The notes beneath the pieces are model-generated. The model saw only the letters and a list, made by a program, of their open reading frames with translations, had not been told where the DNA came from and did not search any database. From NCBI GenBank assembly GCA_963732055.1, contig CAVSYG010000001.1, positions 73,756 through 137,755 on the forward strand: 64,000 bases of DNA, written 5' to 3'. Of this stretch, positions 17,809-46,084 are shown piece by piece. Source of the stretch: an uncultured Bacteroidota bacterium. Lineage in GTDB: Bacteria; Bacteroidota; Bacteroidia; Chitinophagales; Chitinophagaceae. Both the position numbers and the translations under genes were made by a program. Positions within the stretch are counted from its first letter, which is position 1. The number at the start of each line of letters is the position of its first letter.

Positions 17809-18165
17809 ATGAAGTACCTGGGTGTCATATGTGTGTTTGTAAGTTTTTTTATTATTATACAATGCACCTCCAAGAAAAAAGTAGAGTACGACATACCTTC
17901 TCACTACGGAAAAGAGGCCAGGGAAAATGCGATTGACTGGTTTGAAAAGGGGAAAATACTATACAAAATAGATTGTGCAGGTTGCCATGGAATCTATAAA
18001 AAGGGGAAGGATAGTGTACCTAATTTCACCAAAACACAAATTGACAACTATAACGCGATGTATATCAAGGGAGATCCTAAGAATCATTCAGTTGCGTCCA
18101 AGCTAAGCCCTGATCAATTGTATTACATACTTACTTTCTTAAGACTCCGGAAAATAGATAAGTAA
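17809..18165 (+). CDS. Small c-type cytochrome-like protein, probable lipoprotein
   Basis: Single CxxCH (CAGCH) after G..LY, an N-terminal hydrophobic stretch ending IIQC, and a C-terminal LSPDQLYYILTFL helix typical of class I cytochrome c. Confidence 0.65.
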   Translation: MKYLGVICVFVSFFIIIQCTSKKKVEYDIPSHYGKEARENAIDWFEKGKILYKIDCAGCHGIYKKGKDSVPNFTKTQIDNYNAMYIKGDPKNHSVASKLSPDQLYYILTFLRLRKIDK

Positions 18166-18472: not shown

Positions 18473-21400
18473 ATGTTTAAGACCCTAACTCATAATTCCC
18501 GGTTTGAATTCAGGAATTATTTCCTATTACCCCTGCTTTTAGTTTTTGCATTCAATTTTGCCTACACTCAGAATGCAATTGTCACTGAAAATTTAAATGC
18601 TGGTGTTCCCGCATCCCAGTGGGATATTCCTTTAAATAGTAATGGCACATTTGGAGACAAAACCATACAGGGTTTCGGCACCGATATCAGTGTAAACGTT
18701 GGCGGTACTATCAATTTTAAGATAACGGTTACGTCAGGAACGGATAAGTCATTCGGAATTAAAATTTACCGTATTGGATATTATCAGGGAAACGGAGCCC
18801 GCCTGATAGCAGATCTTGGTACTGCTTTTACCGGAATCACACAAAATGCCTGTTCGTTTGACAATACAACCGGGCTCACAGATTGCGGTAACTGGACGAC
18901 CAGCGCAAGCTGGACTGTCCCGTCTACAGCTGTTTCGGGACTGTATGTTGCCAAATTAACCCGGTCAGCTGCCGGTGGTGGTGGTTCCAGTCATATTGCT
19001 TTTATTGTTCGAAATGACGCCAGTACTTCCCAACTCTTATTTAAGACATCCGATGCCACCTGGCAGGCTTATAATCCTTATGGTGGATACAGTCTGTATG
19101 TCGGTGCCGGTATGCCATTCAATCATGGCGATAAAGTGAGTTATAACCGGCCGTATCTGACAAGAGACGGCGGGGGAGGCGGAGGAGCATCCGAGGATTT
19201 CTTTATGAATGCGGAATATCCCATGATCCGTTTCCTTGAAAGAAACGGCTTTGATATCAGTTATACAACTGACGTAGACATGGCGCGTAGCACAACTAAC
19301 CCTGTCACAAACCATAAAGTTTTTCTTTCTGTCGGTCATGATGAATATTGGTCGAAGGAAGAAAGAAATACAGTTGAAGCGGCACGTACGGCAGGAAAAA
19401 ACATGGCTTTTTTTAGCGGAAATGAAGTTTACTGGAAAACCAGATGGGAAAATAGTGTGGATGGCACAAGTACTCCTTTTCGCACAATGGTTTGTTATAA
19501 GGAAGGCACACTACCTACACCCGGAGAAAATGCATGCGGCGGGAAATGTGATCCCAGCACTGAATGGACAGGATTGTGGCGTGACGGATGCAGCTTTCCG
19601 AATGATAATGCCTGCAAACCTGAAAACGCTCTCAGCGGAGAGATCAGCTGGGATGGGACCACAAGTGCCATCATGGTACCTGATACTTACAAAAACTTAA
19701 GATTTTGGCGGAATACCTCGGTAGCTACATTGGGAGCTGGCCAAACTGCTACTATGACTCCAGGAACTCTGGGTTACGAGTGGGATTGGGAACAATATCA
19801 GAGTAGTTATCCACCCGGTCGCATTACGATGTCAAACACATCTTTTGATGGACATGTCCATAAATTATCGTTTTATAAGTCCTCTGCGGGTGGATTTGTC
19901 TTTGGTGCCGGATCAGTACAATGGTCATGGGGTCTTGATGCCAATCATGACAGTAATGAACAGGGAGGTGGTGGTGCCGCTACTGTGGCCATGCAACAGG
20001 CAACGATCAATTTGTTTGCCGATATGGGTGTACAGCCAGCCAGTATTCAAACAGGTCTTACTGCTGCTACCGCAACTACCGATGTTACTCCCCCGGTAAC
20101 CAAATTTACTTCACCGGCCACTGGATCAACCTTTACTTCATTATCACCTATCAGTTTTTCAGGAACTGCCACTGATGTCGGTGGAGTCGTTGCCGGCGTC
20201 GAAATCTCATTTGATGGAGGTGCGACCTGGGCAGCTGCAACAGGAACAACCAGTTGGACTTATTCCTGGACTCCTATCGGGAATGGAACATTTACAGTGA
20301 TTGTTCGCGGCATTGATGATTCCGGTAATTACACTGCAACAGCGTCTTCTCCTTCCATCACCATTACAATGAACGCTACTGCTCAAAATTGCCCATGTAC
20401 AATTTTTGGAACGACTGTCCCGACTGTGACGGTGACAAATGATAATGCGGGCGGAATTGTGGTTGGTACGAAATTCCGTTCAGCATTGAACGGAACTGTT
20501 ACGGGTATCCGCTTTTACAAGGCTTCGGGTAATAGTGGCACCCATCAGGGCCTGTTGTATAGCAATACAGGAACATTATTAGCCCAGGCAACATTTACCG
20601 GCGAAACGGCCACAGGATGGCAACAGGTAAGTTTTAGTAATCCGGTTACTATAACTGCAGGTACAACTTATGTTGCTTCCTATTTCAGCAGCAGTGGCAA
20701 TTATAGTTCGACAAACAATTATTTTTCACAAGCAATCGTAAATAGTCCTTTGACAGGTCTGGCAGACGGTACAGACGGAACAAATGGTGTTTATATATAT
20801 GCCTCTGCACCAGCCTTTCCTATTAATTCCTATCAAAAAGGAAATTACTGGGTGGATGCTGTATTTACCAATACGAACACCATTACGGCGAACGCTGGAA
20901 CTAACCAAACGATCACTTTGCCTCTGTCAACCATAACGCTCAATGGCAGTGCTTCTACTGGCGCAATCACCAGCTATGCGTGGACTGTTGTTTCCGGACC
21001 CAACACACCAACTATCACAACTTCAACCGCAGTTACGACAACCGTGACCGGATTGATCCAGGGAACTTATGTGTTCCAACTTTCAGTAAATGGTGGAGCA
21101 AGCACAGCACAGGTTACCATACTTGTAAATCCTCTTCCTCCACCCATGGCAAATGCAGGTCCCAAACAAACCATTACTTTACCCACTTCAACTGTAACTC
21201 TCAATGGCAGTGGTTCAGCGGGCACAATTACCAGTTATTCATGGAGTTTAATTTCGGGTCCTAATACACCTACCATTGCAACCCCCACAACAGTAAAGAC
21301 GACTGTTACAGGTCTGATTCAGGGCACATATATTTTTCAGCTTGCTCTGAATGGAACAGTCAGTACAGCAAGAGATACTGTAATCGTAAATGCCGCTGCC

Positions 21401-24400
21401 GCACCTGTGGCGAATGCGGGAAGTAATCAGACGATCACGCTACCGGTTTCATCGGTTACACTCAATGGTAATGGATCAACGGGTACAATAACCAGTTATG
21501 GCTGGACGAATATCTCCGGACCTAATACACCGGTAATTACAACACCTTCCAATGTTTCAACAACCGTCACCGGATTGATCCAGGGCAGTTATGTATTTCA
21601 GCTTTCATTAAATGCAGGCGCCAGTGTTTCTCAAGTTACCGTAACTGTAAATGCAGTTTCAACCTCCACCACTATATTCACAACACAAACACCGGCGGGG
21701 CCTACCGAAAATGATGCTTTGGCACTTGAGCTCGGAGTGAAATTCCGGACAAATACGGCTGGTTCTATCACCGGCATTCGCTTCTACAAGACGACTGGGA
21801 ATTCAGGCACCCATATAGGAGAATTGTATTCTTCTACCGGCACCCGGTTGGCACAGGCAACATTTACAGGCGAAACGGCGACCGGATGGCAACAAGTGCT
21901 CTTTAGTTCGCCCGTGGCAATCACGGCAGGTACAACCTATGTCGCTGCTTATTTCAGCAGTTCCGGTAACTATACCAGCACATCAAACTATTTCACGACC
22001 GCAGTAGTGAATGGTCCGATTACTGCTTTGGCAGATGGAACAGATGGCTCCAACGGAGTATACAGATATTCTACAACGGCTGTTTTCCCTTCCAGCACAT
22101 ACCAAAAAAGTAATTACTGGGTGGATGCCATATTTTCTTCCGGGCCTGTTGCACCGGTTGCAAATGCGGGTGCTAATCAGACCATAACATTACCAACGTC
22201 TAGGTGTCACACTGAACGGCAGTGGCTCTACAGGCGCAATCAGCAGTTATTCATGGACGTTAGTATCCGGACCAAACGTGCCGGTAATTACTACGCCCAC
22301 TACCGTGTCGACAACAGTAACCGGATTAATACAGGGAACTTATGTGTTCAAATTATCTTTAAATGGTGCCGTAAGTACTTCTCAGGTTACCATTACTGTA
22401 AACGCTGCACAGACTGTCGTTGCAAATGCGGGGGCTAATCAGACGATCGTCTTGCCGGCGTCTTCTGTAACACTGAATGGCAGCGGTTCAACCGGTACCA
22501 TTAGCAGTTATTCATGGACGTTAGTATCCGGACCAAACGTGCCGGTAATTACTACGCCCACTGCCGTGTCGACAACCGTGACCGGATTGATCCAGGGAAC
22601 TTATGTGTTCCAACTTTCAGTAAATGGTGGAGCAAGCACAGCACAGGTTACCATACAGGTAAATCCTGCTCCGCCACCTGTTGCTAATGCGGGCCCCAAA
22701 CAGACTATTACGTTACCGACTTCAACGGTGACTCTTAACGGCAGTGGTTCTACCGGCACCATATCCAGTTATGCCTGGAGTTTTGTTTCGGGTCCCAATA
22801 CACCTACTATAACAACTCCTACAACTGTAAAGACAACTGTTACAGGTCTGATTCAGGGCACATATATTTTTCAGCTTGCTCTGAATGGAACAGTCAGTAC
22901 AGCAAGAGATACTGTAATCGTAAATCGCCGCTGCCGCACCTGTGGCGAATGCGGGAAGTAATCAGACGATCACGCTACCGGTTTCATCGGTTACACTCAA
23001 TGGTAATGGATCAACGGGTACAATAACCAGTTATGGCTGGACGAATATCTCCGGACCTAATACACCGGTAATTACAACACCTTCCAATGTTTCAACAACC
23101 GTCACCGGATTGATCCAGGGCAGTTATGTATTTCAGCTTTCATTAAATGCAGGCGCCAGTGTTTCTCAAGTTACCGTAACTGTAAATGCAGCTTCAACCT
23201 CCACCACTATATTCACAACACAAACACCGGCGGGGCCTACCGAAAACGATGGTTTGGCACTTGAGCTCGGAGTGAAATTCCGGACAAATACGGCTGGTTC
23301 TATCACCGGCATTCGCTTCTACAAGACGACCGGGAATTCAGGCACCCATATAGGAGAATTGTATTCTTCTACCGGCACCCGGTTGGCACAGGCAACATTT
23401 ACAGGCGAAACGGCGACAGGATGGCAACAAGTGCTCTTTAGTTCGCCCGTGGCAATCACGGCAGGTACAACCTATGTCGCTGCTTATTTCAGCAGTTCCG
23501 GTAACTATACCAGCACATCAAACTATTTCACGACCGCAGTAGTGAATGGTCCGATTACTGCTTTGGCAGATGGAACAGATGGCTCCAACGGAGTATACAA
23601 ATATTCTACAGCGGCTGCTTTTCCTTCCAGCACATACCAAAAAAGTAATTACTGGGTGGATGCCATATTCTCTTCCGGGCCTGTTGCACCGGTTGCAAAT
23701 GCGGGTGCTAATCAGACCATAACTTTACCAACTTCCACAGTTACACTGAACGGCAGTGGCTCTACAGGCACAATCAGCAGTTATTCATGGACGTTAGTAT
23801 CCGGACCAAACGTGCCGGTCATTACTACGCCCACTGCCGTGTCAACAACTGTAACCGGATTAATACAGGGAACTTATGTGTTCAAATTATCTTTAAATGG
23901 TGCCGTAAGTACTTCTCAGGTTACCATTACCGTAAACGCTGCACAGACTGTCGTTGCAAATGCGGGTGCTAATCAGACCATCGTCTTGCCTGCGTCTTCT
24001 GTAACACTGAATGGCAGCGGATCTACAGGTACTATTTCCAGTTATGCATGGACCAGGATTTCAGGTCCGGGCACACCCATAATTGCAACACCCAGTGGTG
24101 TAACAACTTTGGTAACCGGACTGGTACAGGGTACTTATGTATTTCAACTTTCACTAAATAGTGGCGCCAGTGTATCACAAGTAACCGTGAATGTGATTCC
24201 CGCTTCCACACCCGTAACTATTTTTACTACACAGACACCAACGGTAACCACGTCGAATGACGGGATCGGCATTGAAACAGGTGTAAAATTCCGCAGCAGT
24301 GTTGGCGGGACAATTACAGGCGTTCGCTTTTATAAAACATCCGGCAACACGGGTACTCATACAGGTGAACTATATTCATCAATTGGTGCAAGACTCGCCC

Positions 24401-27150
24401 AGGCGGTCTTTACAAATGAAACGGCCACAGGATGGCAGACGGTAATATTCAGTTCGCCTGTGCCAATTACTGCCGGTGTAACATATATCGCCGCTTGTTA
24501 CAGCAGTAGCGGAAACTACATAAGCACAGATAATTATTTTAATACAGCCGTTGTTAACGCACCATTGACCGCCCTGGCTGACGGAACCGACGGGCCAAAT
24601 GGTGTGTTTGTATATGGAAATGCTGCTGCGTACCCAGCGAATTCGGGTTCAAAGACTAATTATTGGGTAGATGCGATTTTTAACGGTTCGGTTAATACGG
24701 TCGATGTAACTCCTCCGGGAATAATAGTAACCAGTCCGGCAGCTGCTGCAACCAATGTATCCGCGAATTCATCTGTCAATGTATTCTTCAATGAAGAATT
24801 AAATCCGTCAACTGTGTCAGGTAATACTGTTTTCCTCCAGAATGGAACGACCAACATTGCATCCTCTGTGATCAATAATACTGAAGGAGGCGTGACGCTG
24901 ACACCTTCCGCACCGCTTAATCCCAACACTGTATATACGGTTACGGTAAAGGGCGGAACTGGTACAAATAAAATTACAGATGTCGCAGGAAACGCTTTGA
25001 CAAAAGATACGGTTTGGAGTTTCACTACAGCTCCCAAACCAACCGTGGCAATCCCTGCTAACGGACCCGGTGGTCCGATACTGCTGATTAGCTCCGCCTC
25101 AAATGCATTCAGCCGTTATCCAGTCGAAATACTGCGTGCCGAAGGTTGGAATGCTTTTAACGCATTGGATATTTCAGCTGTCACAACAACAGAAATAAAC
25201 AAATACGATGTGGTTGTTGTCGGAGATATTACTCTAACGGCCGCACAGGTAACCATGTTAACAAACTGGGTAAATGCAGGCGGAACGTTGATTGCATTTC
25301 ATCCGGATCCACAATTGTCTGCATTGCTGGGAATTTCTTCAGCCGGCGGAACAATGTCAGATAAATACCTGCTTGTAAATACGGCAACAGCGCCCGGACT
25401 CGGTATTGTGAACCAGACTATTCAATATCACGGCGTTGCCAATCTGTATAATGTAAATGCAGGTACCAATATTGTGGCTACTCTTTATTCAGATGCAACA
25501 ACGGCGACCATTTATCCGGCCGTGACCAGCAGGAATGTCGGAACACTCGGTGGACAGGCTATTGCGTTTGCATATGATCTGGCGAAATCGGTTGTATATA
25601 CAAGACAGGGCAATCCGGCTTGGGCAGGACAGAACCGCGACGGGCAGGATGCCGTTATTCGTGCGGATAATTTATTTTTTGGCAATGCATCTTTTGATCC
25701 GCAGCCGGATTGGGTAAACCTGAATAAGGTAGCCATACCGCAGGCAGATGAACAACAAAGATTATTCACGAATATTATAGTGGCTGGGAATTTCGATCGT
25801 AAACCATTACCGAGGTTCTGGTTCCTTCCGAAGGGGAAGAAAGCGGCTGTTGTGATGACGGGTGATGATCATGCGAACGGTGGAACCATGGGCAGATTTA
25901 ATAGATACCTGGCACTCAGTAGTTCAAATACACCCAGTGATGTGGCTAACTGGAATGCAATCCGGAGTACGTCATATATGTATCCGTTCTCTCCCATAAC
26001 TAATGCGCAGATCGCAATATATCAGAACCAGGGATTTGAACTTGCATTTCATCTGAATCCGAACTGCAGTGTATGGACACCTAGCCAACTTCAAAATTAT
26101 TTTAGTAGCCAGATGTCAGATTTCACAGACGAATATTATGTAGCGAATCCGCTGGCAACACATCGTATCCATTGTCTTTCATGGAGTGACTGGGCCACAT
26201 TGCCAAAAACAGAAGTTCAGCTTGGCATCCGTCTGAATGTGAGTTATTATTACTGGCCGCCTTCCTGGATTAATAACAGACCGGGTATGTTTACAGGATC
26301 TGGTATGCCTATGCGTTTTGCAGATACTGACGGTAGCCTGATTGACAACTACCAGGTGCCCAGTTATATGACTGATGAATCCGGTCAGACTTATCCCATG
26401 ACGATCGATTCACTGTTACTTCGTGCGACCGGGGCACAGGGGTATTATGGCGTTTTCTGCGCAAATATGCACACAGATGATTCTGCTTCTGCCGGTTCGG
26501 AAGCAATCATTGCTTCGGCACAGGCATTGCAAATTCCCGTGGTGTCTTCCAAACAAATGCTCGATTGGCTGGATGCAAGAAATAATTCTACATTCTCAAA
26601 TTATACCTGGTCAAACGGCACATTGGGCTTTACAGTAACACAGGATCCTAAGGCGCTGAATTTAAAAGGCATGTTACCGCAAACTATTTCCGCGGGTAGT
26701 TTTATTTCACTTACTCAAAACGGATTAGCTGTTAATACCACGATTGAAACCATTAAGGGAATTAGTTATGTTTTCTTTGATGCAAGCAACGGTAATTATG
26801 TCGCGACATATGCAGTAACCGCTCCTGGTGCCGGCAGTAATCCTGCTTTGGCTCAAATTGCACCGGCCTCAGAGTCTGATTCAACAAACTTCACGAATTA
26901 CCTGGGTCAGAATTATCCTAATCCATTTAGTCTGAATACAAGAATCAATTATAGTATTGCTGCAAGTAATGTCGTTGAATTGATTTTATACGACATGCAG
27001 GGAAGGCCGGAAAAAGTTATGGTAAATGAAGTAAAAAAAGCAGGTAACTATGTTTACGATTTGAATACGGGTAACCTGGCGAAGGGAGTTTATTTCTACA
27101 GAATCCGTTCCGGAAGTTTTATCGATGTAAAAAAACTGATTATTCAATAA
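18473..27150 (+). CDS. Giant T9SS-secreted multidomain protein (~2,891 aa after removing two +1 insertions): DMFase-beta-like domain, Ig-like domain, 4x DUF4082, 9x PKD-like repeats, SbsA/Big_5-like Ig, shared ~585-aa module, CTD
   Basis: Track ORFs 18473..22438, 22278..22961 and 22942..27150 join into one frame. The insertions at ~22203 (extra G) and 22926 (extra C) are shown by the internal duplicate copy. Motifs TWQAYN, VGHDEYWS, GxKF..TGIRFYK..NYWVD, ANAGxNQTITLP, and CTD LGQNYPNPF..LAKGVYFYRI. Confidence 0.85.
21037..24025 (+). repeat. Intragenic tandem duplication, unit ~1,533 bp (511 aa: PKD repeats plus one DUF4082)
   Basis: ACCGTGACCG at 21041 recurs at 22575, ACTGTTACAGGTCTG at 21302 recurs at 22836, and CCGGATTAATACAGGG at 22321 recurs at 23855 (offset 1534 each, including one spurious inserted base). 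Confidence 0.92.
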
Positions 27151-27542: not shown

Positions 27543-30500
27543 ATGTATCAGAAAACTTTACCCTATGTCAGGGGAATAAAATATTTTATTATTTTATTCC
27601 TTGCATTTTTTTCCTTCCATTCCTCCTTTTCCCAAAATCCGATTGTTACTGAGAATGCACAGATAGGGACACCTGCTTCAACTTGGGATATTCCAACAAA
27701 AGATGCTGGTGATTCTTCTATCCAGGGATTTGCGACGGATATTAGTGTAAATGTTGGTGGTACGATAAACTTTAAAATTGATGTCAATACGGGAACTGAT
27801 AAGACTTTTAATATTTCAATTTATCGAATAGGTTATTATCAGGGGAACGGCGCGCGTCTGATTGCTGATTTAGGACCGGGCTTTACTTTTAACGGTATCG
27901 CCCAGGGTGGTTGTAACTATGATGGTGCAACGGGTCTTACTGATTGTGGAAACTGGACTACCACGGCTTCATGGAATGTTCCTGCAGGCGCTGTATCTGG
28001 ACTATATATCGCTAAACTTACAAGGTCGGCAGCAGGCGGTGGAGGGACCAGTCATATCCCATTTGTCGTACGAAATGATGCTCCAACAAATACCTCTGCA
28101 CTTTTCTTTAAGACTTCGGATGCTACCTGGCAGGCTTATAATAATTATGGAGGCAACAGTTTATATGTCGGAGCTGGCTTACCGAATAACCATGCATCAA
28201 AAGTCAGTTACAATCGTCCCTTTCTTACCCGCTCAGGTGGTGGGGGCGGTGCCGCAAGGGAAGACTGGTTTATGAATGCCGAGTATCCAATGATCCGTTT
28301 TCTGGAGTCAAACGGATTTGACGTCAGTTACACTACGGATATGGACCTTGTTCGCAATAATGTAAATAATATTAATCTTTTATTGAATCATAAAATATTT
28401 CTGTCAAACGGCCATGATGAATATTGGTCCAAGGAAGAAAGGAATACCGTTGAAGCAGCAAAAGCGGCTGGAAAAAATCTGGCTTTCTTCAGCGGAAACG
28501 AAATATATTGGAAAACAAGATGGGAAAACAGTATTGATGGTACAAGTACTCCTTTTCGTACCATGGTATGTTATAAAGAAGGTGCACTGCCAACAGCCCA
28601 GGAAAATGCCTGTGGAGATAAATGTGATGTTTCAACAAACGAATGGACAGGCTTATGGCGAGACGGATGTAATTATACCGGTGTGACGGACGCATGTAAA
28701 CCTGAAAACGCATTATCCGGGCAGATCAGCTGGGACGGAATTCCGGGCACAATAACAGTTCCTGATACTTATAAAAATTTAAGATTCTGGCGTAATACAG
28801 CTGTAGCCACGCTGGGAACCGGGGTAACGCAAACACTCACCAATGGAACATTGGGATACGAGTGGGATTGGTTTCAATATAGCAGTACGTATCCGCCGGG
28901 AAGGGTTAGGATGTCAAGCACTACATTAGACGGCCGGATACATAATTTATCCTTATACAAAGATGTAACCAGTAAAGCCCTGGTATTCGGTGCAGGGACG
29001 GTACAATGGGCCTGGGGACTAGATGCCAATCACGATATCAATGAGCTAAGTAATGGTGGTGCTGCCGATCGAAATATGCAGCAGGCTACGATCAATCTGT
29101 TTGCAGATATGGGCGTTCAGCCGGCTACAATTCAAAGTCCGCTTACCATTGCTACGCAATCAACAGATATTACACCGCCTGTTACAACAATTACATCACC
29201 GGCCAATGGTACGCAGATACCGGAAAGCGCAACTTTCAATATTACGGGAACTGCCACAGATGTGGGTGGTGTAGTTGCAGGCGTCGAAGTATCCGTAGAT
29301 GGCGGCCTCACCTGGCAACCCGCTACCGGTACGACGAACTGGAGTTTTTCCTGGCTGCCAACTGCGCAGGGGACTGTAACGATAAAAAGTCGTGCTTTTG
29401 ATGATATCGGAAACCTGGAATCTCCCGGTGGAAGTGAAGGTTCGGCTAATACCGTAACAGTATCAGTAGTTTCAGGTACACCGCCAACAAACTGCCCTTG
29501 CTCTATATTATACACAACCGTCACAAAGCCCGACCAACAATAATGATCTGAATCAACATGATCGGACCGGGTGGCATCACAGTCGGCGTAAAATTTAAAG
29601 CTGATTTTGATGGTAAAATTACACGGAATCAGATTTTTTAAAGCGCCTCTTGATAACGCGACGACAGATGAACACGTGACATTATATGCATATAAGTCCG
29701 GATGGTGGAGTCAGCCCTGGAACGGCGATAGCTACTGCCAGTCTGCCATCAAATTTTACGCATGATCAGGTAAACGGAGAGTGGGCAGAGGTTTTATTTG
29801 CAACGCCTTTTCAGATTACGGCAAATACTGTTTATGTAGCTACTTATTATAGCCCTACCGGATATTACAATGCTACCGATAATTCTTTTACAAATCCGGT
29901 TGTAAATGGTCCGCTGGCTATATTGAAGGATGGTGACGAGGGCGTTAATGGTGCATATATTTACGATGACGCATACCCGACTAATGGATTTCAGGCATCC
30001 AACTATTGGGTCGATGTAGATTATTCAAACGGCGCTGATATTACACCACCAACGGTTATTTTTAATAATCCTGCATCAGGTGCGACGAATATCAACATCA
30101 ATAGTTCAATTTCAGCTACATTCAGCGAGAATATAAACCCGTCTACGGTAACCGGAGCTACTTTTGTATTAAAAGATGGTTCGGGAAATATAATACCTGG
30201 AACCGTCAGCTATTCTGTTGGCACAAGGTCAGCGACTATACTTTTGTCATCTCCCCTCGATTATTCCACACAATACTTTGCTACGGTTACTGGTGGAGCT
30301 TCAGGAATAAAAGATCTGGCGACCCCTACCGCCAATGCCATGGTATCTGATTTTATATGGAGCTTTACAACAGTTCCCGTTCCGGCAATTCCGCCCGATG
30401 ATGGATCGGGTGGACCCATATTGATTGTTAGCAGTAACCTGAACCCGTATAGTCGGTACCTTGTAGAAATACTTAGGGCACAGGGATATACCGCTTTCAA

Positions 30501-32724
30501 AGCAGTAGATATTTCGGAAGTGGAATCAAACCCGGCGATGCTGAATGATTATGATATTATTTTGTTGGGCCAGATGACACTTAATTCAACAGATGTTGGA
30601 CTTTTTTCCTCGTGGACCAATGCAGGAGGCACGCTCATAGCGCAACGTCCCAGTACATTGCTTTATCCTTTGATGGGTATCACATCCAGCGGTACGAGAG
30701 TAGATAATATTACTAATACCTACCTGTTGGTAAATACCGCAACAGGGTTGCCGGGGACTGGTATTGTGAGCCAAACTATCCAATATCATGGTGATGCTGA
30801 TCTTTACAACATGAACGCGGGGACAACCAGCCTGGCGACGCTTTACTCTTCGGCTACTACAGCAACTGTTAATCCGGCAATTACAAGTAAGAATTGTGGT
30901 GCAGGTAAAGCAATCGCCTATGCATTTGACCTTGCAAAGTCCATCATACTGACAAGACAGGGAAATATGGCATGGGCAGGTTCCAGTAGAGACGGGCAGA
31001 CGGGACCAACCAGATCCGATAATTTATTTTTCCCGAATTGGGTTGATTTTAATAAAATACAAATTCCGCAGGCAGATGAACAACAACATTTGCTAACTAA
31101 TATCATTCTGCTCGATAATCTGAATAAGAAACCTTTACCACACCTATGGATTTTGCCGAGCGGATTAAAAGCGGCTGTGATAATGACCGGAGATGATCAT
31201 AACAATGGAAGTTATCCCGGAAGTTCCGGAACAGCCGGCCGGTTTAATGAATACAGAGATATGAGTACTGATAATTCTCCCGGGGCTGTTGATGACTGGA
31301 AAGCAATCAGGGGCACCTCCTATGTTTTTAACGACATATCGATGTCGATCGATTCGGTAGCTTATTATCAATCTCTGGGATTTGAAATTGCATTGCATCC
31401 GAATACCAATTGTATAAATTTTACTCCGGCATCTTTAACAAGTACCATATCCACCCAACTATCACAGCTTGAGGCACAATTGCCCACTTTGATGTCTCCG
31501 GTTACCAACAGGACCCATTGCATGCCATGGAGTGACTGGGCGTCTCAACCAAAGATTGAAAATTCGTTCGGTATCCGGTTTGATGTAAATTATTATTACT
31601 GGCCTAGCACCTGGGTTCAAAACAGGCCCGGACTGTTTACAGGTTCCGGTATGCCGATGCGTTTTGCGGATAATGACGGAACGCTGATTGATTGTTTTCA
31701 GGCCCCGACCCAAATACCAGATGAATCCGGATTGGATATCACAAATAGCATCAATACATTGCTGGATAACGCCATTAACAAGGGATATTATGGGGCATTT
31801 GTTATGAACATGCACACGGATACTGCCATACATGTAGGTTCAGATCAAATCATCGCTTCAGCGAAGGCAAGAAATATTCCCATTATCAGTGCTAGGCAAA
31901 TGCTGACCTGGCTGGATAGCCGGAATGGTACAAAGTTTAGTAATATCGCCTGGGATAATGTTGCCAAAAAGTTGAGCTTTGATCTGACAACAACTGCACA
32001 CAATCTGCAGGCCATGGTGCCTTTCAACTCTGCTGATGGCACACTGTTGCAGGTGACCGGAGGTGGAACGCCTGTTACGGTTACCACACAAACTGTAAAA
32101 GGAATTGCCTACGGATTTTTTCCTGCCAGCTCACAAAGTTATGTGGCTACATATTCAAGTACTCCATTGCCCATCACACTACTGAATTTTACAGTTACCA
32201 AACAGGGTGATAATGCACAACTGAACTGGTCAACTTCATCGGAAGAAAATAATAAGGGTTTTGAAATACAGCGTAGCACAGATCAATCCAACTGGACTGT
32301 ATTGAATTTTATCGCTGGTGCTGGAAACAGTCAGACTGAAAAGGATTATCAATATCTTGATCAGAATCTGCCCGCTGGAACTTATTATTATCGTCTGCGA
32401 CAGGTTGATTATGATGGTAATTCATCTTTCAGCAAAGTTGTACCGGTGACTTTTGATGGAGGTATGGCGTTGGAGTTGAAACAGAATCATCCGAATCCGT
32501 TCAGTAATTATACTTCGATTTCTATGGTCATTCCAAAAGCCGGTCGTGTGCAACTGATGTTATATGACCAGATGGGCAGACCCATACAGCAATTAATGGA
32601 TGAGGAAAAAATGCCCGGAACGTATACCGTAACGGTGAATAAGAACGGATTGAGTTCTGGCATTTATTATTATAAAATGAATGCGCTCGGACAAGTGATC
32701 GTAAAGAAAATGACAATTTTGTAA
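27543..32724 (+). CDS. Second T9SS-secreted paralog (~1,725 aa after removing four +1 insertions): DMFase-beta-like domain, Ig, DUF4082, Big_5-like Ig, shared module, LPITL-type Ig-like domain, CTD
   Basis: ORFs 27543..29543 and 29686..32724 are bridged by DUF4082 fragments (GGITVGVKF, GIRFFKA) in successive frames at 29530-29690. N-terminal domain is closely similar to paralog 1. CTD LKQNHPNPF..LSSGIYYYKM. Confidence 0.85.
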
Positions 32725-32923: not shown

Positions 32924-34834
32924 ATGGGGAGACTTCTGAAAATAATATCAACGGTTTTTATTCTGATTCTTTTACCGCTTTCTTCCAGAGTTTTTAATTT
33001 ATTCTTAAGATTTTCCGCCCAGAATTTTCCAACCACTCCGATATATGATGGACCCGGAGGACCTATATTGATTGTCAGCAGTGCTGTGAATCCTTTCGGC
33101 CGTTACCAGGTAGAAATATTAAGAGCACAGGGATATACATCTTTCAAGGCTGTAGATATTACCGAAGTGGAGGCAAACCCTGCGATACTGAATAGTTACG
33201 ATGTTATTTTATTAGGACAGATGAAATTAAATGCGTCAGATGTTTCTCTTCTGATTACATGGACTAACAAAGGCGGCACACTCATAGCTCAACGACCCTG
33301 TTCATTACTTTATCCATTAATGGGTATAACATCAAGGGACTCTGTAGCGGATAATTATAAAAAAACTTACCTGTTAGTAGATACCACAATTGAGCAACCG
33401 GGAGCTGGAATTGTAAGCCAGACGATCCAGTATCATGGTGTAGCTGATCTGTACGATTTGCTGCCCGGAACCACGAGTCTCGCAACATTATATTCTTCAG
33501 CGACGACACCCACTCGCAATCCAGCAATAACAAGTGCCAGCGTTGGTAACAAAGGAGGTAAAGCGATCGCTTTTGCATTCGATCTTGCGAAATCCATTGT
33601 GCTTACAAGACAGGGAAATATGGCTTGGACGGGGCAGAGCAGAGACGGGCAAACAGGTCCTATCAGATCGGACGATTTATTCTTCCCAGACTATGTCGAC
33701 TTCGACAAAATACAAATTCCACAGGCCGACGAACTTCAGTATCTGTTTACGAATATCATCCTGCTGGATAATCTGCATCGAAAGCCCCTGCCGCATTTAT
33801 GGATACTGCCCAGGGGATTAAAGGCAGCGATCGTGATGACTGGAGATGATCATAATATAGAAATGAAATCGGGATTTACTGGTACGCCGAGCCGCTTCAA
33901 TGATTACAGGTTAATGAGCATGGACAATTCTCCACAAGCCGTGGAAGATTGGAAAGCGATCAGGGCTACTTCTTATGTTTATGACAATATAATCTTGTCC
34001 AATGATTCAGTACATCATTATCAGTCTTTGGGATTTGAAATCGCGTTTCATCCTACTACCGATTGCAAAGATTTTACACGTACGTCGCTTTCAAATGATA
34101 TGACCAGGCAATTGTCAAAGCTTGAGACAAAATTACCCGGTATGTTACCACCGGTTACAAACAGAACACATTGTATGCCCTGGAGTGACTGGGCGTCACA
34201 ACCGAAAATTGAAAGCTCTTTGGGGATCCGTTTTGATGTAAATTATTATTATTGGCCGAGTACCTGGGTTCAGAACCGGCCCGGGCTGTTTACGGGCTCA
34301 GGTATGCCCATGCGTTTTGCAGATAGTAATGGAACAATGATTGATTGTTATCAGGCGCCTACACAAATTCCGGATGAATCCGGGCTTGATATTACAAACA
34401 GCATCAATACACTGCTGGATAATGCGATTAATAAAGGTTACTACGGAGCTTTTGTAATGAATATGCACACGGATACTGCCATGCATATCGGATCGGACCA
34501 GATCATCACTGCTGCGATGACCAGACAGATACCTGTTATTTCTTCCAAACAAATGTTAACCTGGCTCGATAACCGTAACGGGACTGTATTCAGCGGTGTA
34601 GCCTGGGATAATATCGCAAAAACACTGAGTTTTACTGTCAATACAATTGCGCATAACCTTCAGGTTATGGTTCCTCTGCATTCTATGGACGGGGAACTGA
34701 TTCAGGTAATTGAAAATGGAAAGCCTGTCCCATTTACAATTCAAACGATTAAGGGAATACAGTATGGGTTTTTCGCCGCAAGCACGCACAATTACAATTA
34801 TATCGCTGTTTATTCAAAAAAAGCCGCTGAGTAA
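32924..34834 (+). CDS. Third paralog: N-terminal signal/anchor plus the shared ~585-aa module only (no DMFase-like domain, no CTD)
   Basis: GPGGPILIVSS, VMTGDDH, GFEIAFHP, RTHCMPWSDW, YYYWP and NMHTD align with the modules at 25063-26815 and 30403-32160. Confidence 0.88.
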   Translation: MGRLLKIISTVFILILLPLSSRVFNLFLRFSAQNFPTTPIYDGPGGPILIVSSAVNPFGRYQVEILRAQGYTSFKAVDITEVEANPAILNSYDVILLGQMKLNASDVSLLITWTNKGGTLIAQRPCSLLYPLMGITSRDSVADNYKKTYLLVDTTIEQPGAGIVSQTIQYHGVADLYDLLPGTTSLATLYSSATTPTRNPAITSASVGNKGGKAIAFAFDLAKSIVLTRQGNMAWTGQSRDGQTGPIRSDDLFFPDYVDFDKIQIPQADELQYLFTNIILLDNLHRKPLPHLWILPRGLKAAIVMTGDDHNIEMKSGFTGTPSRFNDYRLMSMDNSPQAVEDWKAIRATSYVYDNIILSNDSVHHYQSLGFEIAFHPTTDCKDFTRTSLSNDMTRQLSKLETKLPGMLPPVTNRTHCMPWSDWASQPKIESSLGIRFDVNYYYWPSTWVQNRPGLFTGSGMPMRFADSNGTMIDCYQAPTQIPDESGLDITNSINTLLDNAINKGYYGAFVMNMHTDTAMHIGSDQIITAAMTRQIPVISSKQMLTWLDNRNGTVFSGVAWDNIAKTLSFTVNTIAHNLQVMVPLHSMDGELIQVIENGKPVPFTIQTIKGIQYGFFAASTHNYNYIAVYSKKAAE

Positions 34835-36418: not shown

Positions 36419-37297
36419 TTAACTCACTATTTTTAATGAAGCCTGGTCAAATTGATTGATCAGTGAAGCCGTTTCATAAATATTACTTTTTGATGATGCA
36501 CCAAAAAGGATTGATTCAATATTGGGCAGACTGCACACATATTCTATCGCTTCCCGGGCTGAAACAGCACCACCAGCCAGAACCTGCATAGCAATGGCCC
36601 GGAATCGTCCGGTGCTGAGTATATGTTCATACTTCTCCCTGCCCCCCGACATCCTGAATCCTGCTTTATTAATAGATGAACAGATTATGGGGTTCTTAAT
36701 GCCGGCTCCTTCCAGCACATCCAATAGCATGGGCATATTCATTGTTATATAGCCTGCTTCAGCATTATACTTCTTTGCTACATATTTGTGATATGATACC
36801 AGCACATCTGTCATTCTCAACCCAAGCAAAAGATCAGTAATTACGTTTTGGAGGAAAATAACAGGGGTTTGTATGCCTTTAAACATTTTCATTTCGGCGT
36901 CAATCAGCAATTCCATTATGGCCATATAGTCTTTCGATAAAAAAGCAACCCCACCTTTAAAAAGTGAACCGACAAAATTCCCGGGAACATATTGTTTGAG
37001 TGTTCCGGCGATACCCAGTTCGGTAACCGCATTCGCATATTTATGCGCATACGGCATACAAGGGAAAATTTTGAAATTTCTGTATTTATCCGGATCGTCC
37101 CGGATGATCTGGCAGATATTTGCTATCCGGTCATGCGTTGTACACATGAAAGTTTTTATGCCCGCTTCCATTGCATAATCAAGTGTCCTGACAATCGCGC
37201 TGTCTTCCTTAAAGCGCATCGACTGGGCCATAGATTTGTCATCAGAAATATGATTTACCGCGAAAAACTGGTTATCACCAAATAATATTCTGTCCAT
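36419..37297 (-). CDS. Conserved hypothetical protein, possibly aldo/keto-reductase-like barrel
   Basis: Intact 292-aa ORF in operon. Segments AMEAGIKTF, IAMQVLAGG, EAIEYV and ILFGAS resemble AKR-fold segments (inference). Confidence 0.55.
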   Translation of the reverse strand: MDRILFGDNQFFAVNHISDDKSMAQSMRFKEDSAIVRTLDYAMEAGIKTFMCTTHDRIANICQIIRDDPDKYRNFKIFPCMPYAHKYANAVTELGIAGTLKQYVPGNFVGSLFKGGVAFLSKDYMAIMELLIDAEMKMFKGIQTPVIFLQNVITDLLLGLRMTDVLVSYHKYVAKKYNAEAGYITMNMPMLLDVLEGAGIKNPIICSSINKAGFRMSGGREKYEHILSTGRFRAIAMQVLAGGAVSAREAIEYVCSLPNIESILFGASSKSNIYETASLINQFDQASLKIVS

Positions 37298-38390: not shown

Positions 38391-39518
38391 TCATTTCAAT
38401 AATGAAGTAAAAGTGTCTATGACTTTTTGAATATCTTCTTCTTTCATTGGAATATACAGAGGCAGAATGATACTTCTGTCACTGGCTTTTTCCGACACTG
38501 GTAATTGCAGATTGGCATATTCCTTATTATACGCTGTTTCCCGATGTGTTGTCATAATTCCCCTTCGTGTTGAAATACCGGCATCCAGCATTTTCTGCAT
38601 GATGTCATTTCTGCTGACCGGAGAGTCATCCTGCAGGTAAATACTGTAGGACTGATAGTTACTAAAATATCCCTTTTTTTCTATTGGTAACTGAAGATAT
38701 TTGAGACCCTTAAAGGCTTTATGATACCGAAGTGCTATTTTTCTTCTTTTTGCTATGATCCAGTCCAGTTTTTCAAGTTGCTGGATTCCGACAGATGCCT
38801 GTATGTCAGTTAGCCGATAATTGTAGCCTACTTCCAGATGATCTTCGAATATAATTTTGGAAGATTCATGTCTGGTTCGGTCATTTACCGACATGCCATG
38901 CTGCCTGAGGAGCTTCATGCGGTTATAATATGACTCATTATTTGTAGTGATCATTCCGCCGTCACCGGTTGAAATAACTTTTCTTGGGTGAAAGGAAAAG
39001 CAAACCAGATCTGAATGACTTCCGATTTTAGCTCCCTTATATGCGGAACCGGCAGCGCATGCGGCGTCTTCAATTAATTTCAGCTGGTATTTTTTTGCAA
39101 GCTCCTTAAAAGCATCTATATCGGCGGGCATTCCAATCTGGTGAACCAGCAGTATGGCTTTTGTCTTATCCGTAATTTTTCTTTCTGTATCCTGCACGTC
39201 GAGGTTATAATTTGTGGGATTTATTTCCGCAAATACGGGTTTTGCACCCACGTATTTGATAGTGTTGGCGGTAGCAATATAACTCATAGAAGGACAAATT
39301 ACTTCATCGTCAGGACCAATGCCTGATACAATCATCGCGAGATGAAGGGCCGTTGTGCAATTTGAAACGGCAACGGCATATTTCGCTCCGGTATAAGCAG
39401 CGAATTTCTGTTCAAATTCGGCAACCCGCGGTCCCTGCGTTATCCATCCGGTCAATATGGTATCGTATGCAGCTTTTGCTTCTTTTTTTGTCAGGTAGGG
39501 TTTGGCTATCGGAATCAT
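38391..39518 (-). CDS. DegT/DnrJ/EryC1/StrS PLP-dependent sugar aminotransferase
   Basis: MIPIAKP, SNCTTALH, IEDAACA, FSFHPRK (PLP lysine) and GYNYRLTD. ATG 39518 overlaps the upstream stop codon. Confidence 0.93.
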   Translation of the reverse strand: MIPIAKPYLTKKEAKAAYDTILTGWITQGPRVAEFEQKFAAYTGAKYAVAVSNCTTALHLAMIVSGIGPDDEVICPSMSYIATANTIKYVGAKPVFAEINPTNYNLDVQDTERKITDKTKAILLVHQIGMPADIDAFKELAKKYQLKLIEDAACAAGSAYKGAKIGSHSDLVCFSFHPRKVISTGDGGMITTNNESYYNRMKLLRQHGMSVNDRTRHESSKIIFEDHLEVGYNYRLTDIQASVGIQQLEKLDWIIAKRRKIALRYHKAFKGLKYLQLPIEKKGYFSNYQSYSIYLQDDSPVSRNDIMQKMLDAGISTRRGIMTTHRETAYNKEYANLQLPVSEKASDRSIILPLYIPMKEEDIQKVIDTFTSLLK

Positions 39519-40495: not shown

Positions 40496-40527
40496 GACGT
40501 TCTTTATTTAACGGCTTTAAGTTTTAT

Positions 40528-43440: not shown

Positions 43441-43442
43441 TA

Positions 43443-44543: not shown

Positions 44544-44559
44544 GATTTTATTGATACGG

Positions 44560-45048: not shown

Positions 45049-45051
45049 AGA

Positions 45052-46065: not shown

Positions 46066-46084
46066 TATTTTTTAATGTTTTTAT

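What the first reader, a model, noticed from the sequence alone, without database searches (positions are those of the whole stretch)
18570..20060. DMFase-beta-like domain on T9SS surface proteins retains candidate iron ligands; possible sugar deformylase
Seen: paralog 1 and paralog 2 (about 27640-29120) both conserve TWQAYN, SLYVG, EYPMIRFLE and GHDEYWSKEE. Known: N,N-dimethylformamidase uses a mononuclear iron site with two Tyr and one Glu plus a nearby His. Inference: the Tyr of AYN, the Tyr of SLY and the His/Glu of GHDE could form an equivalent site. An extracellular location makes solvent DMF an unlikely natural substrate, whereas a formyltransferase lies about 20 kb away in the adjacent locus.
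Basis: partly seen in the sequence, partly recalled or inferred. Interest (0 to 1): 0.72.

Follow-up and report, generated by a model that had tools for sequence, protein, structure and literature searches.

The report
Secreted dimethylformamidase-like amidase heads
Two neighbouring giant surface proteins of a soil Bacteroidota bacterium each start with an enzyme domain that keeps the iron-site residues of dimethylformamidase, so they probably cut amide bonds outside the cell; nothing ties them specifically to formyl sugars.

Summary
Window 18569-20092 and 27630-29180 encode two 76%-identical ~508-aa domains that match Pfam PF20254 (DMFA2_C) at E 4e-96 and 5e-93. All four quoted motifs are present in both.

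HMMER alignments to solved structures map five residues that mutagenesis showed to be essential in Paracoccus dimethylformamidase (DMFase):
- QAY-N = Y399
- SLY-VG = Y440
- G-H-D-E-YW = H519 and E521
- SG-N-E = N547

These are kept in 257-264 of 266 homologous domains. An AlphaFold model (pLDDT 85) matches only N-acetyl-(R)-beta-phenylalanine acylase and DMFase in the PDB. The pentraxin domain II is absent. The sixth catalytic residue, E657, could not be mapped, and I could not obtain model coordinates to measure site geometry.

Intact orthologues carry this head and a T9SS C-terminal sorting domain in one ORF. The window's frame breaks are single extra bases that related strains lack. dN/dS is 0.03-0.05.

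The head belongs to a very large uncharacterised secreted family, usually joined to DUF4082 and often to an NDST1/CE4-like deacetylase module.

The formyltransferase link is synteny within one subclade. None of nine other head-bearing genomes in the phylum sample has that formyltransferase.

Best reading: an extracellular metal-dependent amidohydrolase, probably a glycan de-N-acylase. Formyl specificity is unsupported.

The parts
18473..18568 (+). Signal peptide of gene 1 (aa 1-32). The mature protein would begin at Gln33 (QNAIVTEN).
   Evidence: Hydrophobic N-terminus in the translation. The homologue consensus begins AQNxIVTEN at the same point. Cleavage site is inferred, not predicted by a tool.
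18569..20092 (+). DMFase-like catalytic head of gene 1 (508 aa). It combines an Ig-like domain I with a ThuA/GATase-like alpha/beta domain III and has no pentraxin domain II.
   Evidence: PF20254 E 3.9e-96. AF2 pLDDT 84.8, pTM 0.90. Foldseek matches 8i5a at E 1.9e-17 and 6lvd at E 1.5e-15, with nothing else credible. Domain II gap seen in the alignments; DMFase domain limits from PMC7686228.
19070..19099 (+). Two candidate metal-ligand tyrosines of gene 1: Y200 (TWQAY-N, equivalent to DMFase Y399) and Y209 (SLY-VG, equivalent to Y440).
   Evidence: HMMER alignments. Conserved in 264/266 and 257/266 domain copies. Codon positions.
19337..19345 (+). H289-D290-E291 of gene 1. H is equivalent to DMFase H519 and E to E521. 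The Asp replaces the Pro found in DMFase and the acylase and is invariant in this subfamily.
   Evidence: H519A and E521A are inactive in DMFase.
19421..19423 (+). N317 of gene 1 (FFSG-N-E), equivalent to DMFase N547, the proposed oxyanion stabiliser.
   Evidence: Conserved in 260/266 copies. N547A is inactive in DMFase.
20093..25038 (+). Stalk of gene 1: Big_7, then DUF4082 and K319L-type PKD modules, then Big_5. It contains an internal repeat whose opening 300 nt are identical (21392-21691 = 22927-23226, start-to-start spacing 1535 nt).
   Evidence: Pfam. Repeats. Near-identical peptides.
22202..22202 (+). Frame break 1 of gene 1: one extra base relative to related strains.
   Evidence: Three-frame translation. 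DNA sequence. One base 'left out' in contigs of runs X2 and X3.
22925..22925 (+). Frame break 2 of gene 1: one extra base relative to related strains.
25039..26841 (+). About 585-aa module of gene 1 with no Pfam family. It comprises a GATase1-like domain, a NodB/CE4-like deacetylase fold and a beta-sandwich (MTGDDH, NMHTD motifs).
   Evidence: 44% identity to the gene 2 copy. AF2 of paralogue 3 gave pLDDT 86.6. Foldseek: NDST1 N-deacetylase at E 6.9e-11, CE4 deacetylases and GATase1 domains.
26914..27150 (+). T9SS type A C-terminal sorting domain of gene 1, with its stop codon.
   Evidence: PF18962 E 2.1e-08. TIGR04183 E 2.2e-11.
27543..27629 (+). Signal peptide of gene 2. The mature N-terminus would be QNPIVTEN.
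   Evidence: Translation. Consensus. Cleavage site is inferred.
27630..29180 (+). DMFase-like catalytic head of gene 2. Candidate residues are Y199, Y208, H291, E293 and N319, at 28137-39, 28164-66, 28413-15, 28419-21 and 28497-99.
   Evidence: PF20254 E 4.7e-93. PDB phmmer alignments. Codon positions.
29510..29691 (+). Four single-base frame breaks in gene 2, at 29510, 29562, 29624 and 29691. They split the head from the DUF4082, Big_5, 585-aa module and CTD part (29686-32724).
   Evidence: Bases 'left out' in contigs of X3 (all four) and X1 (the two sites it covers). The intact 1707-aa orthologue in G010 has head and CTD together.
29686..32724 (+). Remainder of gene 2: partial DUF4082, Big_5, the 585-aa NDST1/CE4-like module and the T9SS CTD (32491-32718).
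   Evidence: Pfam. NCBIfam. BLASTP against the gene 1 tail.
32924..34834 (+). Paralogue 3: an N-terminal helix plus the 585-aa module alone, with no head and no CTD.
   Evidence: No Pfam or NCBIfam hit. Homologues. AF2 and Foldseek.

Best explanation
The finding is the N-terminal catalytic head of two tandem giant T9SS cargo proteins. Once the single-base frame breaks are discounted, these are about 2891 and 1725 aa long.

Each head is a cut-down member of the dimethylformamidase / N-acetyl-beta-phenylalanine acylase superfamily. It has the Ig-like domain I and the ThuA/GATase-like domain III that holds the active site. It lacks the pentraxin domain II, and I found no small subunit.

Five of the six residues that mutagenesis showed to be needed in DMFase are retained:
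- the two Tyr and one Glu that bind Fe3+
- the nearby His
- the oxyanion Asn

The head therefore most likely binds a mononuclear metal, probably Fe3+, which activates water and polarises an amide carbonyl. That would hydrolyse an amide bond outside the cell.

The substrate is inferred, not shown. The head is usually fused to DUF4082 beta-sandwich modules. It is often fused to an NDST1/CE4-like de-N-acetylase module, and sometimes to GH16. The most likely target is therefore N-acyl groups on an extracellular amino-sugar polymer, which could be the cell's own exopolysaccharide or a foreign cell wall.

Shown here: family membership, fold, residue retention, purifying selection, secreted architecture.
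Inferred: metal identity, catalysis, substrate class.
For: - PF20254 at E 4e-96 and 5e-93.
- A profile of 50 homologues hits the acylase 8i5a at E 1.2e-16 and DMFase 6lvb at E 3.3e-10.
- The alignments put Y, Y, H, E and N on DMFase Y399, Y440, H519, E521 and N547. The roles of those residues are experimental (PMC7686228). The acylase also keeps them.
- In 266 domain copies the five columns are conserved in 257-264. In the first of the two tandem heads of P0125, four of the five are substituted together: Y399->W, H519->E, E521->S, N547->K.
- AF2 model pLDDT 84.8, pTM 0.90. Foldseek finds only the acylase (TMq 0.66) and DMFase (TMq 0.55) as real matches.
- In the model the residues sit just after parallel strands 156-159, 251-256 and 278-283. 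This is the usual active-site edge of such sheets (inference).
- dN/dS is 0.029 and 0.050 against the G018 orthologues.
- The family is very large: 8498 clusters at 50% identity, and the top 150 are over 50% identical across all 508 aa.
- 192 of 261 homologues carry DUF4082. 53 of 261 carry the 585-aa module, including 13 of 13 proteins of 3000 aa or more. That module folds like NDST1/CE4 deacetylases.
- GH16 fusions occur in L006 and L017.
- Head and CTD lie in one ORF in intact orthologues. SprA is present in the genome.
Against: - No member of the secreted subfamily has been assayed. I found no paper on it.
- E657, the proposed catalytic base of DMFase, could not be mapped.
- The DMFase large subunit alone is inactive without its small subunit, and no small subunit is evident here.
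- The two Tyr are 9 residues apart here, against 41 in DMFase. The Y440 equivalence therefore rests on a short motif, although its posterior probability in the alignment is high.
- The 585-aa partner is not obligatory. It is absent from 300 other sampled genomes of the phylum, including G082, which has three heads.
- Polysaccharide genes are adjacent only in some lineages.
- The genes are frame-broken in this assembly.
Confidence: 0.55

Rival explanations
1. The head is an N-formyl-sugar deformylase that acts on the formylated amino sugar made by the adjacent polysaccharide locus (formyltransferase at 41462-42409).
For: - DMFase itself cleaves a formamide.
- The neighbouring locus has an Arn-like set: DegT aminotransferases, a formyltransferase, a GT2 and an epimerase/dehydratase. 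No PF01522 ArnD-type deformylase was detected.
- Within the genus, the formyltransferase orthologue occurs in exactly the genomes that carry the heads: G008, G010, G011, G018, G020 and the window's own genome.
Against: - That co-occurrence is one syntenic block in one subclade, so it counts as a single event.
- In a 300-genome phylum sample, 0 of 9 other head-bearing genomes have the formyltransferase at E<=1e-40. The only other genome that has it lacks the head.
- No formyltransferase lies within 10 kb of the heads in L003, L004, L006, L015, L016 or L017.
- The closest solved relative is an N-acetyl acylase, not a formamidase.
- Arn-type deformylation happens on the lipid carrier at the inner membrane, according to general knowledge of the Arn pathway. 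It does not happen on a T9SS-exported protein.
Confidence: 0.08
2. The domain is a non-catalytic metal-binding or adhesion module. For example, it could be a surface iron-capturing site that uses the same Tyr/Tyr/His/Glu ligand set as periplasmic ferric-binding proteins.
For: - The DMFase paper itself notes that the two-Tyr arrangement resembles ferric-binding proteins, which also use a His and are not enzymes.
- The head sits on adhesin-like stalks of Ig, PKD and cadherin repeats.
- One homologue lies among copper-resistance genes (L004).
Against: - The oxyanion Asn (N547 equivalent), which has no ligand role, is also kept in 260 of 266 copies.
- Both solved relatives are hydrolases.
- About 60 further invariant positions across the 508 aa suggest a shaped substrate site rather than a simple metal clamp (inference).
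Confidence: 0.12
3. The head is catalytic but not an amidase. The ThuA-like metal site has been re-used for another reaction on carbohydrate, such as ester hydrolysis, lyase chemistry or keto-sugar chemistry.
For: - The core is ThuA/GATase-like.
- Partner domains are carbohydrate-related: DUF4082, GH16 and the CE4-like module.
- The subfamily has its own invariant Asp next to the ligands (HDEY versus HPEY) and lacks domain II.
Against: - Both characterised relatives cleave amides.
- Every DMFase catalytic residue that could be mapped is retained.
- No glycosidase or esterase fold matched credibly.
Confidence: 0.15
4. In this particular genome the two genes are decaying pseudogenes, so the heads no longer function, whatever the family does elsewhere.
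For: There are six single-base frame breaks in the deposited sequence.
Against: - Every break is a one-base insertion that is absent from contigs of related strains, including the best-matching sample X1.
- Orthologues are intact.
- dN/dS is 0.03-0.05.
- Other long-read metagenome assemblies of relatives show the same kind of fragmentation (L005, L017).
- The head coding regions themselves are uninterrupted.
Confidence: 0.1

Closest known systems
N,N-dimethylformamidase large (beta) subunit, Paracoccus sp. DMF (PDB 6LVB/6LVD/6LVE; PMC7686228)
   Same: Same Pfam family (PF20254). It has the same Ig-like domain I and ThuA-like domain III. The alignment equivalents of the Fe3+ ligands Y399, Y440 and E521, the essential H519 and the oxyanion N547 are all present.
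   Different: - Only about 15% identity, with TMq 0.55.
- The pentraxin domain II (residues 74-337) is missing.
- No small subunit is evident, although DMFase needs one.
- E657 could not be mapped.
- The Tyr-Tyr spacing is 9 residues rather than 41.
- The motif is HDEY instead of HPEY.
- The protein is secreted, cysteine-rich and fused to long stalks, whereas DMFase is a cytoplasmic alpha2beta2 enzyme that acts on a synthetic solvent.
N-acetyl-(R)-beta-phenylalanine acylase (PDB 8HUY, 8I5A, 8I59)
   Same: It is the best solved match by both sequence (profile E 1.2e-16) and fold (E 1.9e-17, TMq 0.66). It keeps the same Tyr/Tyr/His/Glu/Asn motifs: TYQAYANY, LATYNLH, GTHPEY, GGNGFYW.
   Different: It shares 13% identity and is a roughly 770-aa protein with the extra middle domain. 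Its substrate is a small N-acetyl amino acid. I could not find its paper, so its metal content is unknown to me.
NDST1 N-deacetylase half and CE4 (NodB) polysaccharide deacetylases (PDB 9F6Z, 4DWE, 2IW0, 2VYO). These are relatives of the fused 585-aa partner module, not of the head.
   Same: The partner module folds as a GATase1-like domain plus a CE4-like barrel. NDST1 is the top match (E 6.9e-11), and chitin and peptidoglycan deacetylases follow. This points to an N-acetylated glycan as the shared substrate.
   Different: The module has no Pfam hit and its motifs are non-canonical (MTGDDH, RTHC, NMHTD). It is absent from many genomes that carry the head.
ArnD (CE4-family undecaprenyl-phosphate-L-Ara4FN deformylase). 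This is the known enzyme type for sugar deformylation.
   Same: The neighbouring locus has Arn-like genes.
   Different: It has an unrelated fold and acts on a lipid-linked sugar at the inner membrane (general knowledge). The head is a T9SS-exported DMFase-type domain. The link was tested only by co-occurrence, which failed outside one subclade.

Membership tests
Pfam PF20254 (DMFA2_C; DMFase beta-subunit-like superfamily) | Sequence match above the curated gathering score | tested here: met
   323.2 and 313.0 bits against a cut-off of 27. The genome scan gives 327.6 and 314.6 bits.
Pfam PF20254 (DMFA2_C; DMFase beta-subunit-like superfamily) | Fold: Ig-like domain I packed on a ThuA/GATase-like alpha/beta/alpha domain III | tested here: met
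   The AF2 model (pLDDT 84.8) matches only 8i5a/8huy (E about 2e-17) and 6lvb/6lvd (E about 1e-15) in the PDB. Domain definitions.
[quoted passage not shown] | Fe3+ ligands Tyr399, Tyr440 and Glu521 | tested here: met
   Alignment equivalents are Y200, Y209 and E291 in gene 1, and Y199, Y208 and E293 in gene 2. They are conserved in 264, 257 and 264 of 266 copies. This is positional equivalence only; metal binding was not measured.
[quoted passage not shown] | Essential second-shell residues His519 and Asn547 | tested here: met
   H289/N317 in gene 1 and H291/N319 in gene 2. Conserved in 262 and 260 of 266 copies.
[quoted passage not shown] | Catalytic base Glu657 | tested here: inconclusive
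   Neither single-sequence nor profile alignment reaches that region. The invariant E436 (GYEWD) and D290 (HDEY) are only candidates.
[quoted passage not shown] | The ligand side chains converge on one metal site in 3D | not testable with these tools
   Model coordinates are not released. The only support is topological: the residues follow parallel strands 156-159, 251-256 and 278-283.
DMFase holoenzyme (alpha2beta2) | Pentraxin-fold domain II (residues 74-337) in the large subunit | tested here: not met
   About 35 residues of the query replace DMFase residues 41-338 and acylase residues 53-343. Domain limits.
DMFase holoenzyme (alpha2beta2) | A separate small (about 15 kDa) subunit that is needed for activity | tested here: inconclusive
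   The only small ORF upstream (17809-18165) is a CxxCH cytochrome-c-like lipoprotein. It is conserved only in the near lineage (L018) and is unrelated to the ORF at that position in L003. I had no model of the small subunit to search with.
T9SS type A cargo | N-terminal signal peptide plus a C-terminal Por_Secre_tail domain on the same polypeptide, in a genome with a T9SS | tested here: met
   The CTDs hit PF18962 and TIGR04183. Head and CTD share a single ORF in G018 and G010. SprA scores 2397 bits in the genome. In this assembly the frames are broken.
   They co-occur only in one syntenic subclade. 0 of 9 other head-bearing genomes in the phylum sample have the formyltransferase. None lies nearby in six other loci.

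The most novel reading that the evidence does not exclude
The signal-peptide, DMFA2_C head, Ig and DUF4082 proteins form a very large, unrecognised class of secreted 2-Tyr-1-carboxylate iron amidohydrolases, with thousands of sequence clusters in Bacteroidota, Myxococcota, Actinomycetota and other phyla. On this reading they de-N-acylate extracellular amino-sugar polymers, often together with a fused NDST1/CE4-like deacetylase. They would also be the natural stock from which the solvent-degrading DMFase evolved.
Probability: 0.35. Interest if true: 0.75.

Novelty: new variant of a known kind. Interest (0 to 1): 0.5.

Why it matters
DMFase has an unusual iron site and acts on a man-made solvent, so where it came from is an open question.

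This work shows that the same residue set sits at the tip of giant secreted proteins. The family has thousands of clusters and has never been assayed.

If the heads are active amidases on glycans, they would be a new kind of carbohydrate-modifying enzyme, a non-CE4 de-N-acylase. That bears on biofilm and exopolysaccharide remodelling and on the turnover of chitin and cell walls in soil. They would also point to the natural ancestor of DMFase.

The experiment is simple. Express one 508-aa head, measure its metal content and screen it against N-acyl substrates.

This window is one more member of a family that was already met several times in this scan, so it adds little on its own. Its two contributions are the negative test of the formyltransferase link and the T9SS context.

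Tried and rejected
- **Mapping DMFase E657.** The profile search with alignments shown and a phmmer search with only the C-terminal 151 aa did not reach DMFase in that region.
- **Measuring ligand distances.** No model coordinates are placed in the Python box.
- **Literature.** I found no paper for PF20254 or DMFA2_C, for the beta-phenylalanine acylase structure, or for secreted DMFase-like proteins. DUF4082 is mentioned only in passing in two papers. The Rhizobium proteins pRL90159 and pRL90161 are only predicted T1SS substrates.
- **Formyltransferase link.** It looked striking within the genus, where 6 of 6 head-bearing genomes have the gene and 0 of 19 others do. It collapsed at phylum scale, so I rejected it as functional evidence.
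- **Obligate coupling of the head to the 585-aa module.** Rejected. The module is absent from all 300 other sampled genomes, including G082 with three heads. It is nevertheless common in the longest homologues.
- **A DMFase-like small subunit upstream.** The 118-aa ORF there is a cytochrome-c-like lipoprotein and is not conserved beyond the near lineage.
- **A glycosidase fold for the head.** GH66 and GH123 hits have TM-scores of 0.11-0.16 and rmsd of 17-22 A, which I take as chance matches to the Ig part.
Full report
**1. What is there**

The window holds two tandem plus-strand genes.

- Gene 1 starts at 18473. In this assembly it is read as three ORFs: 18473-22438, 22278-22961 and 22942-27150.
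- Gene 2 starts at 27543 and is read as 27543-29543 plus 29686-32724.

Each gene begins with a signal peptide and then a roughly 508-aa domain. These domains lie at 18569-20092 and 27630-29180. They match Pfam PF20254 (DMFA2_C, 'N,N-dimethylformamidase beta subunit-like, C-terminal') at E 3.9e-96 and 4.7e-93.

All four quoted motifs (TWQAYN, SLYVG, EYPMIRFLE, GHDEYWSKEE) are present in both genes.

**2. Whole genes and export**

Downstream of each head come:

- Big_7
- DUF4082
- in gene 1, three or more K319L-type PKD domains and further DUF4082 copies
- Big_5
- a roughly 585-aa region with no Pfam family
- a Por_Secre_tail T9SS sorting domain

The frames are broken at about 22202 and 22925 in gene 1, and at 29510, 29562, 29624 and 29691 in gene 2. 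Contigs from three other soil-metagenome runs that carry 94-99% identical DNA lack exactly one base at each of these places.

Same-genus genomes hold intact orthologues of 2479, 2459 and 1707 aa. In each, DMFA2_C and Por_Secre_tail lie in one ORF. The head evolves under strong purifying selection: dN/dS is 0.029 and 0.050 against the G018 orthologues, with dS near or above 1. SprA, the T9SS translocon, is present in the genome.

I therefore read the breaks as most likely assembly indels. The proteins are T9SS cargo of about 2891 and 1725 aa.

Gene 1 also contains an internal repeat. Its opening 300 nt are identical (21392-21691 = 22927-23226), and the copies start 1535 nt apart. This may explain why the G018 orthologue is about 410 aa shorter.

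**3. Are the DMFase catalytic residues kept?**

The DMFase structure paper (PMC7686228) reports the following.

- Fe3+ is bound by Y399, Y440 and E521.
- H519 lies 3.5 A from the metal and is essential.
- N547 (oxyanion) and E657 (possible base) are also required.
- The large subunit has an Ig-like domain I (residues 1-73 plus 338-383), a pentraxin domain II (74-337) and a ThuA-like domain III (384-761).

HMMER alignments of gene 2 and of a 50-sequence profile to PDB chains give this mapping:

| Motif in the window | DMFase residue | Kept in 266 domain copies |
|---|---|---|
| Y of QAY-N | Y399 | 264 |
| Y of SLY-VG | Y440 | 257 |
| H of G-H-DEYW | H519 | 262 |
| E of GHD-E-YW | E521 | 264 |
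| N of SG-N-E | N547 | 260 |

The acylase 8HUY/8I5A, which is the closer solved relative (profile E 1.2e-16), keeps the same motifs.

In the first of two tandem heads in one protein (P0125), four of the five residues are substituted together (Y399->W, H519->E, E521->S, N547->K), while the second head is intact. This is the pattern expected of a functional unit.

E657 could not be placed by sequence. The invariant E436 (GYEWD) and the subfamily-specific invariant D290 (HDEY, where DMFase and the acylase have HPEY) are candidates only.

**4. Fold**

An AlphaFold2 model of head 1 has pLDDT 84.8 and pTM 0.90. Its only credible PDB matches are the acylase (E 1.9e-17, TMq 0.66) and DMFase (E 1.5e-15, TMq 0.55). 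No glycosidase or other hydrolase fold competes.

The alignments show that about 35 residues stand where DMFase has residues 41-338. The head is therefore domain I plus domain III without the pentraxin domain.

In the model the five residues follow parallel strands 156-159, 251-256 and 278-283. That is the usual active-site edge of such a sheet.

**5. The family**

A full HMMER scan of 1.84 billion representative proteins finds 8498 clusters at E<=1e-3 and 2482 at E<=1e-30. The best 150 are all more than 50% identical over the entire 508 aa, and they sit in proteins of 500-5500 aa.

Named hits come from Puia and other Chitinophagaceae, Pontibacter, Gillisia, Salinimicrobium and Myxococcota. 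The nearest are Puia MAGs, so the window is probably from a Chitinophagaceae soil MAG.

Of 261 fetched homologues, 192 contain DUF4082. 53 contain the 585-aa module, including all 13 proteins of 3000 aa or more. The order of head and module can be reversed.

The distribution is patchy: 6 of 25 genomes in the genus and 10 of 301 in a phylum sample carry the head. Tandem arrays of paralogues are common.

**6. The partner module**

The 585-aa module also occurs alone in paralogue 3 (32924-34834). It has no Pfam or NCBIfam hit.

Its AF2 model (pLDDT 86.6) matches these structures:

- the N-deacetylase half of human NDST1 best (E 6.9e-11)
- CE4 polysaccharide, chitin and peptidoglycan deacetylases (TMt up to 0.69)
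- GATase1-like domains

Many of these giant proteins therefore carry two domains of amide-cleaving types. The coupling is not obligatory. None of 300 other sampled genomes of the phylum has the module, including G082, which has three heads.

**7. Test of the deformylase idea**

The minus-strand locus from 34889 onward is a surface-polysaccharide cluster. It includes Bac_transf, two DegT aminotransferases, an epimerase/dehydratase, a GT2, the formyltransferase at 41462-42409, GT4s and a Wzy-like gene.

Within the genus, the formyltransferase orthologue is present in exactly the genomes that have the heads. These genomes share the same gene order, so this is one inherited block, not repeated association.

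At phylum scale the link disappears. None of the 9 other head-bearing genomes has the formyltransferase at E<=1e-40, and the one other genome that has it lacks the head. Neighbourhoods in six other lineages contain no formyltransferase. Only some contain any polysaccharide-synthesis gene: a GT2-GH26 synthase in L003 and a single epimerase in L015. L004, L006, L016 and L017 have none.

Formyl specificity is therefore unsupported. A broader role on N-acylated glycans rests on the domain fusions, not on this neighbourhood.

**8. Mechanism proposed**

Steps shown or supported:

- The protein is exported by Sec and the T9SS.
- The head sits at the mature N-terminus on a long Ig/PKD/DUF4082 stalk.

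Steps inferred:

- Two tyrosinates and a glutamate hold Fe3+.
- The metal acts as a Lewis acid on an amide carbonyl and on a bound water.
- His289 and Asn317 assist, as in DMFase.
- An acid not yet identified, D290 or E436, acts as the base.
- DUF4082 and the other modules hold a polymeric substrate, and the CE4-like module removes acetyl groups from the same polymer.

I put about 0.55 on 'secreted metal-dependent amidohydrolase'. I put less, about 0.35-0.4, on 'glycan de-N-acylase', and about 0.08 on 'formyl-sugar deformylase of the neighbouring locus'.

**9. Novelty**

The domain family is catalogued in Pfam, and NCBI already names these proteins 'N,N-dimethylformamidase beta subunit family domain-containing protein'. 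The resemblance itself is not new.

What is not in the searchable literature is any study of the secreted, domain-II-less subfamily.

Earlier notes of this scan describe at least nine members in other genomes with the same reading. I treated those as leads and re-derived the points above independently. My sampling supports polysaccharide-locus adjacency less strongly than some of those notes state.

Noticed in passing
window 17809-18165 (+): A 118-aa ORF just upstream of gene 1 encodes a small lipoprotein-like protein with a CxxCH haem motif (CAGCHG). A close homologue, judged by eye from the translations, sits at the same place upstream of the DMFA2_C genes in L018. The ORF at that position in L003 is unrelated.
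   Followed up: partly
window 25039-26841, 30403-32160, 32924-34834: A roughly 585-aa module occurs three times. It has no Pfam or NCBIfam family. It folds as GATase1-like plus CE4/NodB-like plus beta-sandwich, and human NDST1 N-deacetylase is its top PDB match. More than 2000 homologues exist, many at 50% identity or above.
   Followed up: partly
window 21392-24460: The stalk of gene 1 contains an internal repeat. Its opening 300 nt are identical (21392-21691 = 22927-23226), and the copies start 1535 nt apart. Both frame breaks of gene 1 lie inside or at the edge of it. The G018 orthologue is about 410 aa shorter, which suggests either repeat-number variation or an assembly expansion.
   Followed up: partly
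window 38391-47923 (-): The polysaccharide locus has an Arn-like set: two DegT, a formyltransferase, a GT2, an epimerase/dehydratase and a 612-aa membrane protein with no Pfam hit. Pfam detected no ArnD-type PF01522 deformylase. The 292-aa ORF (36419-37297) and the 344-aa ORF (42406-43440) have no family at all.
   Followed up: partly
P0125 (2958 aa, metagenome protein): This protein carries two tandem DMFase-like heads. In the first, four of the five mapped catalytic residues are substituted (Y->W, H->E, E->S, N->K). The second head is intact. The protein ends in the same 585-aa module.
   Followed up: partly
L006 10001-12457 and 18437-19606; L017 13606-19800: In other Bacteroidota the head or the 585-aa module is fused to, or lies next to, GH16 domains, within arrays of three or four paralogous head genes. 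This hints at beta-glucan-containing or cell-wall substrates.
   Followed up: no
window 20380-20420 and 29490-29510: A conserved Cys-Pro-Cys motif (NCPCTIF / NCPCSIL) precedes the first DUF4082 module in both genes and in the homologues. Its role is unknown.
   Followed up: no
L005, L017 (long-read metagenome contigs of relatives): The orthologous giant genes are also chopped into several short ORFs there. This is the same kind of fragmentation as in the window and is consistent with systematic indel errors in such assemblies.
   Followed up: no
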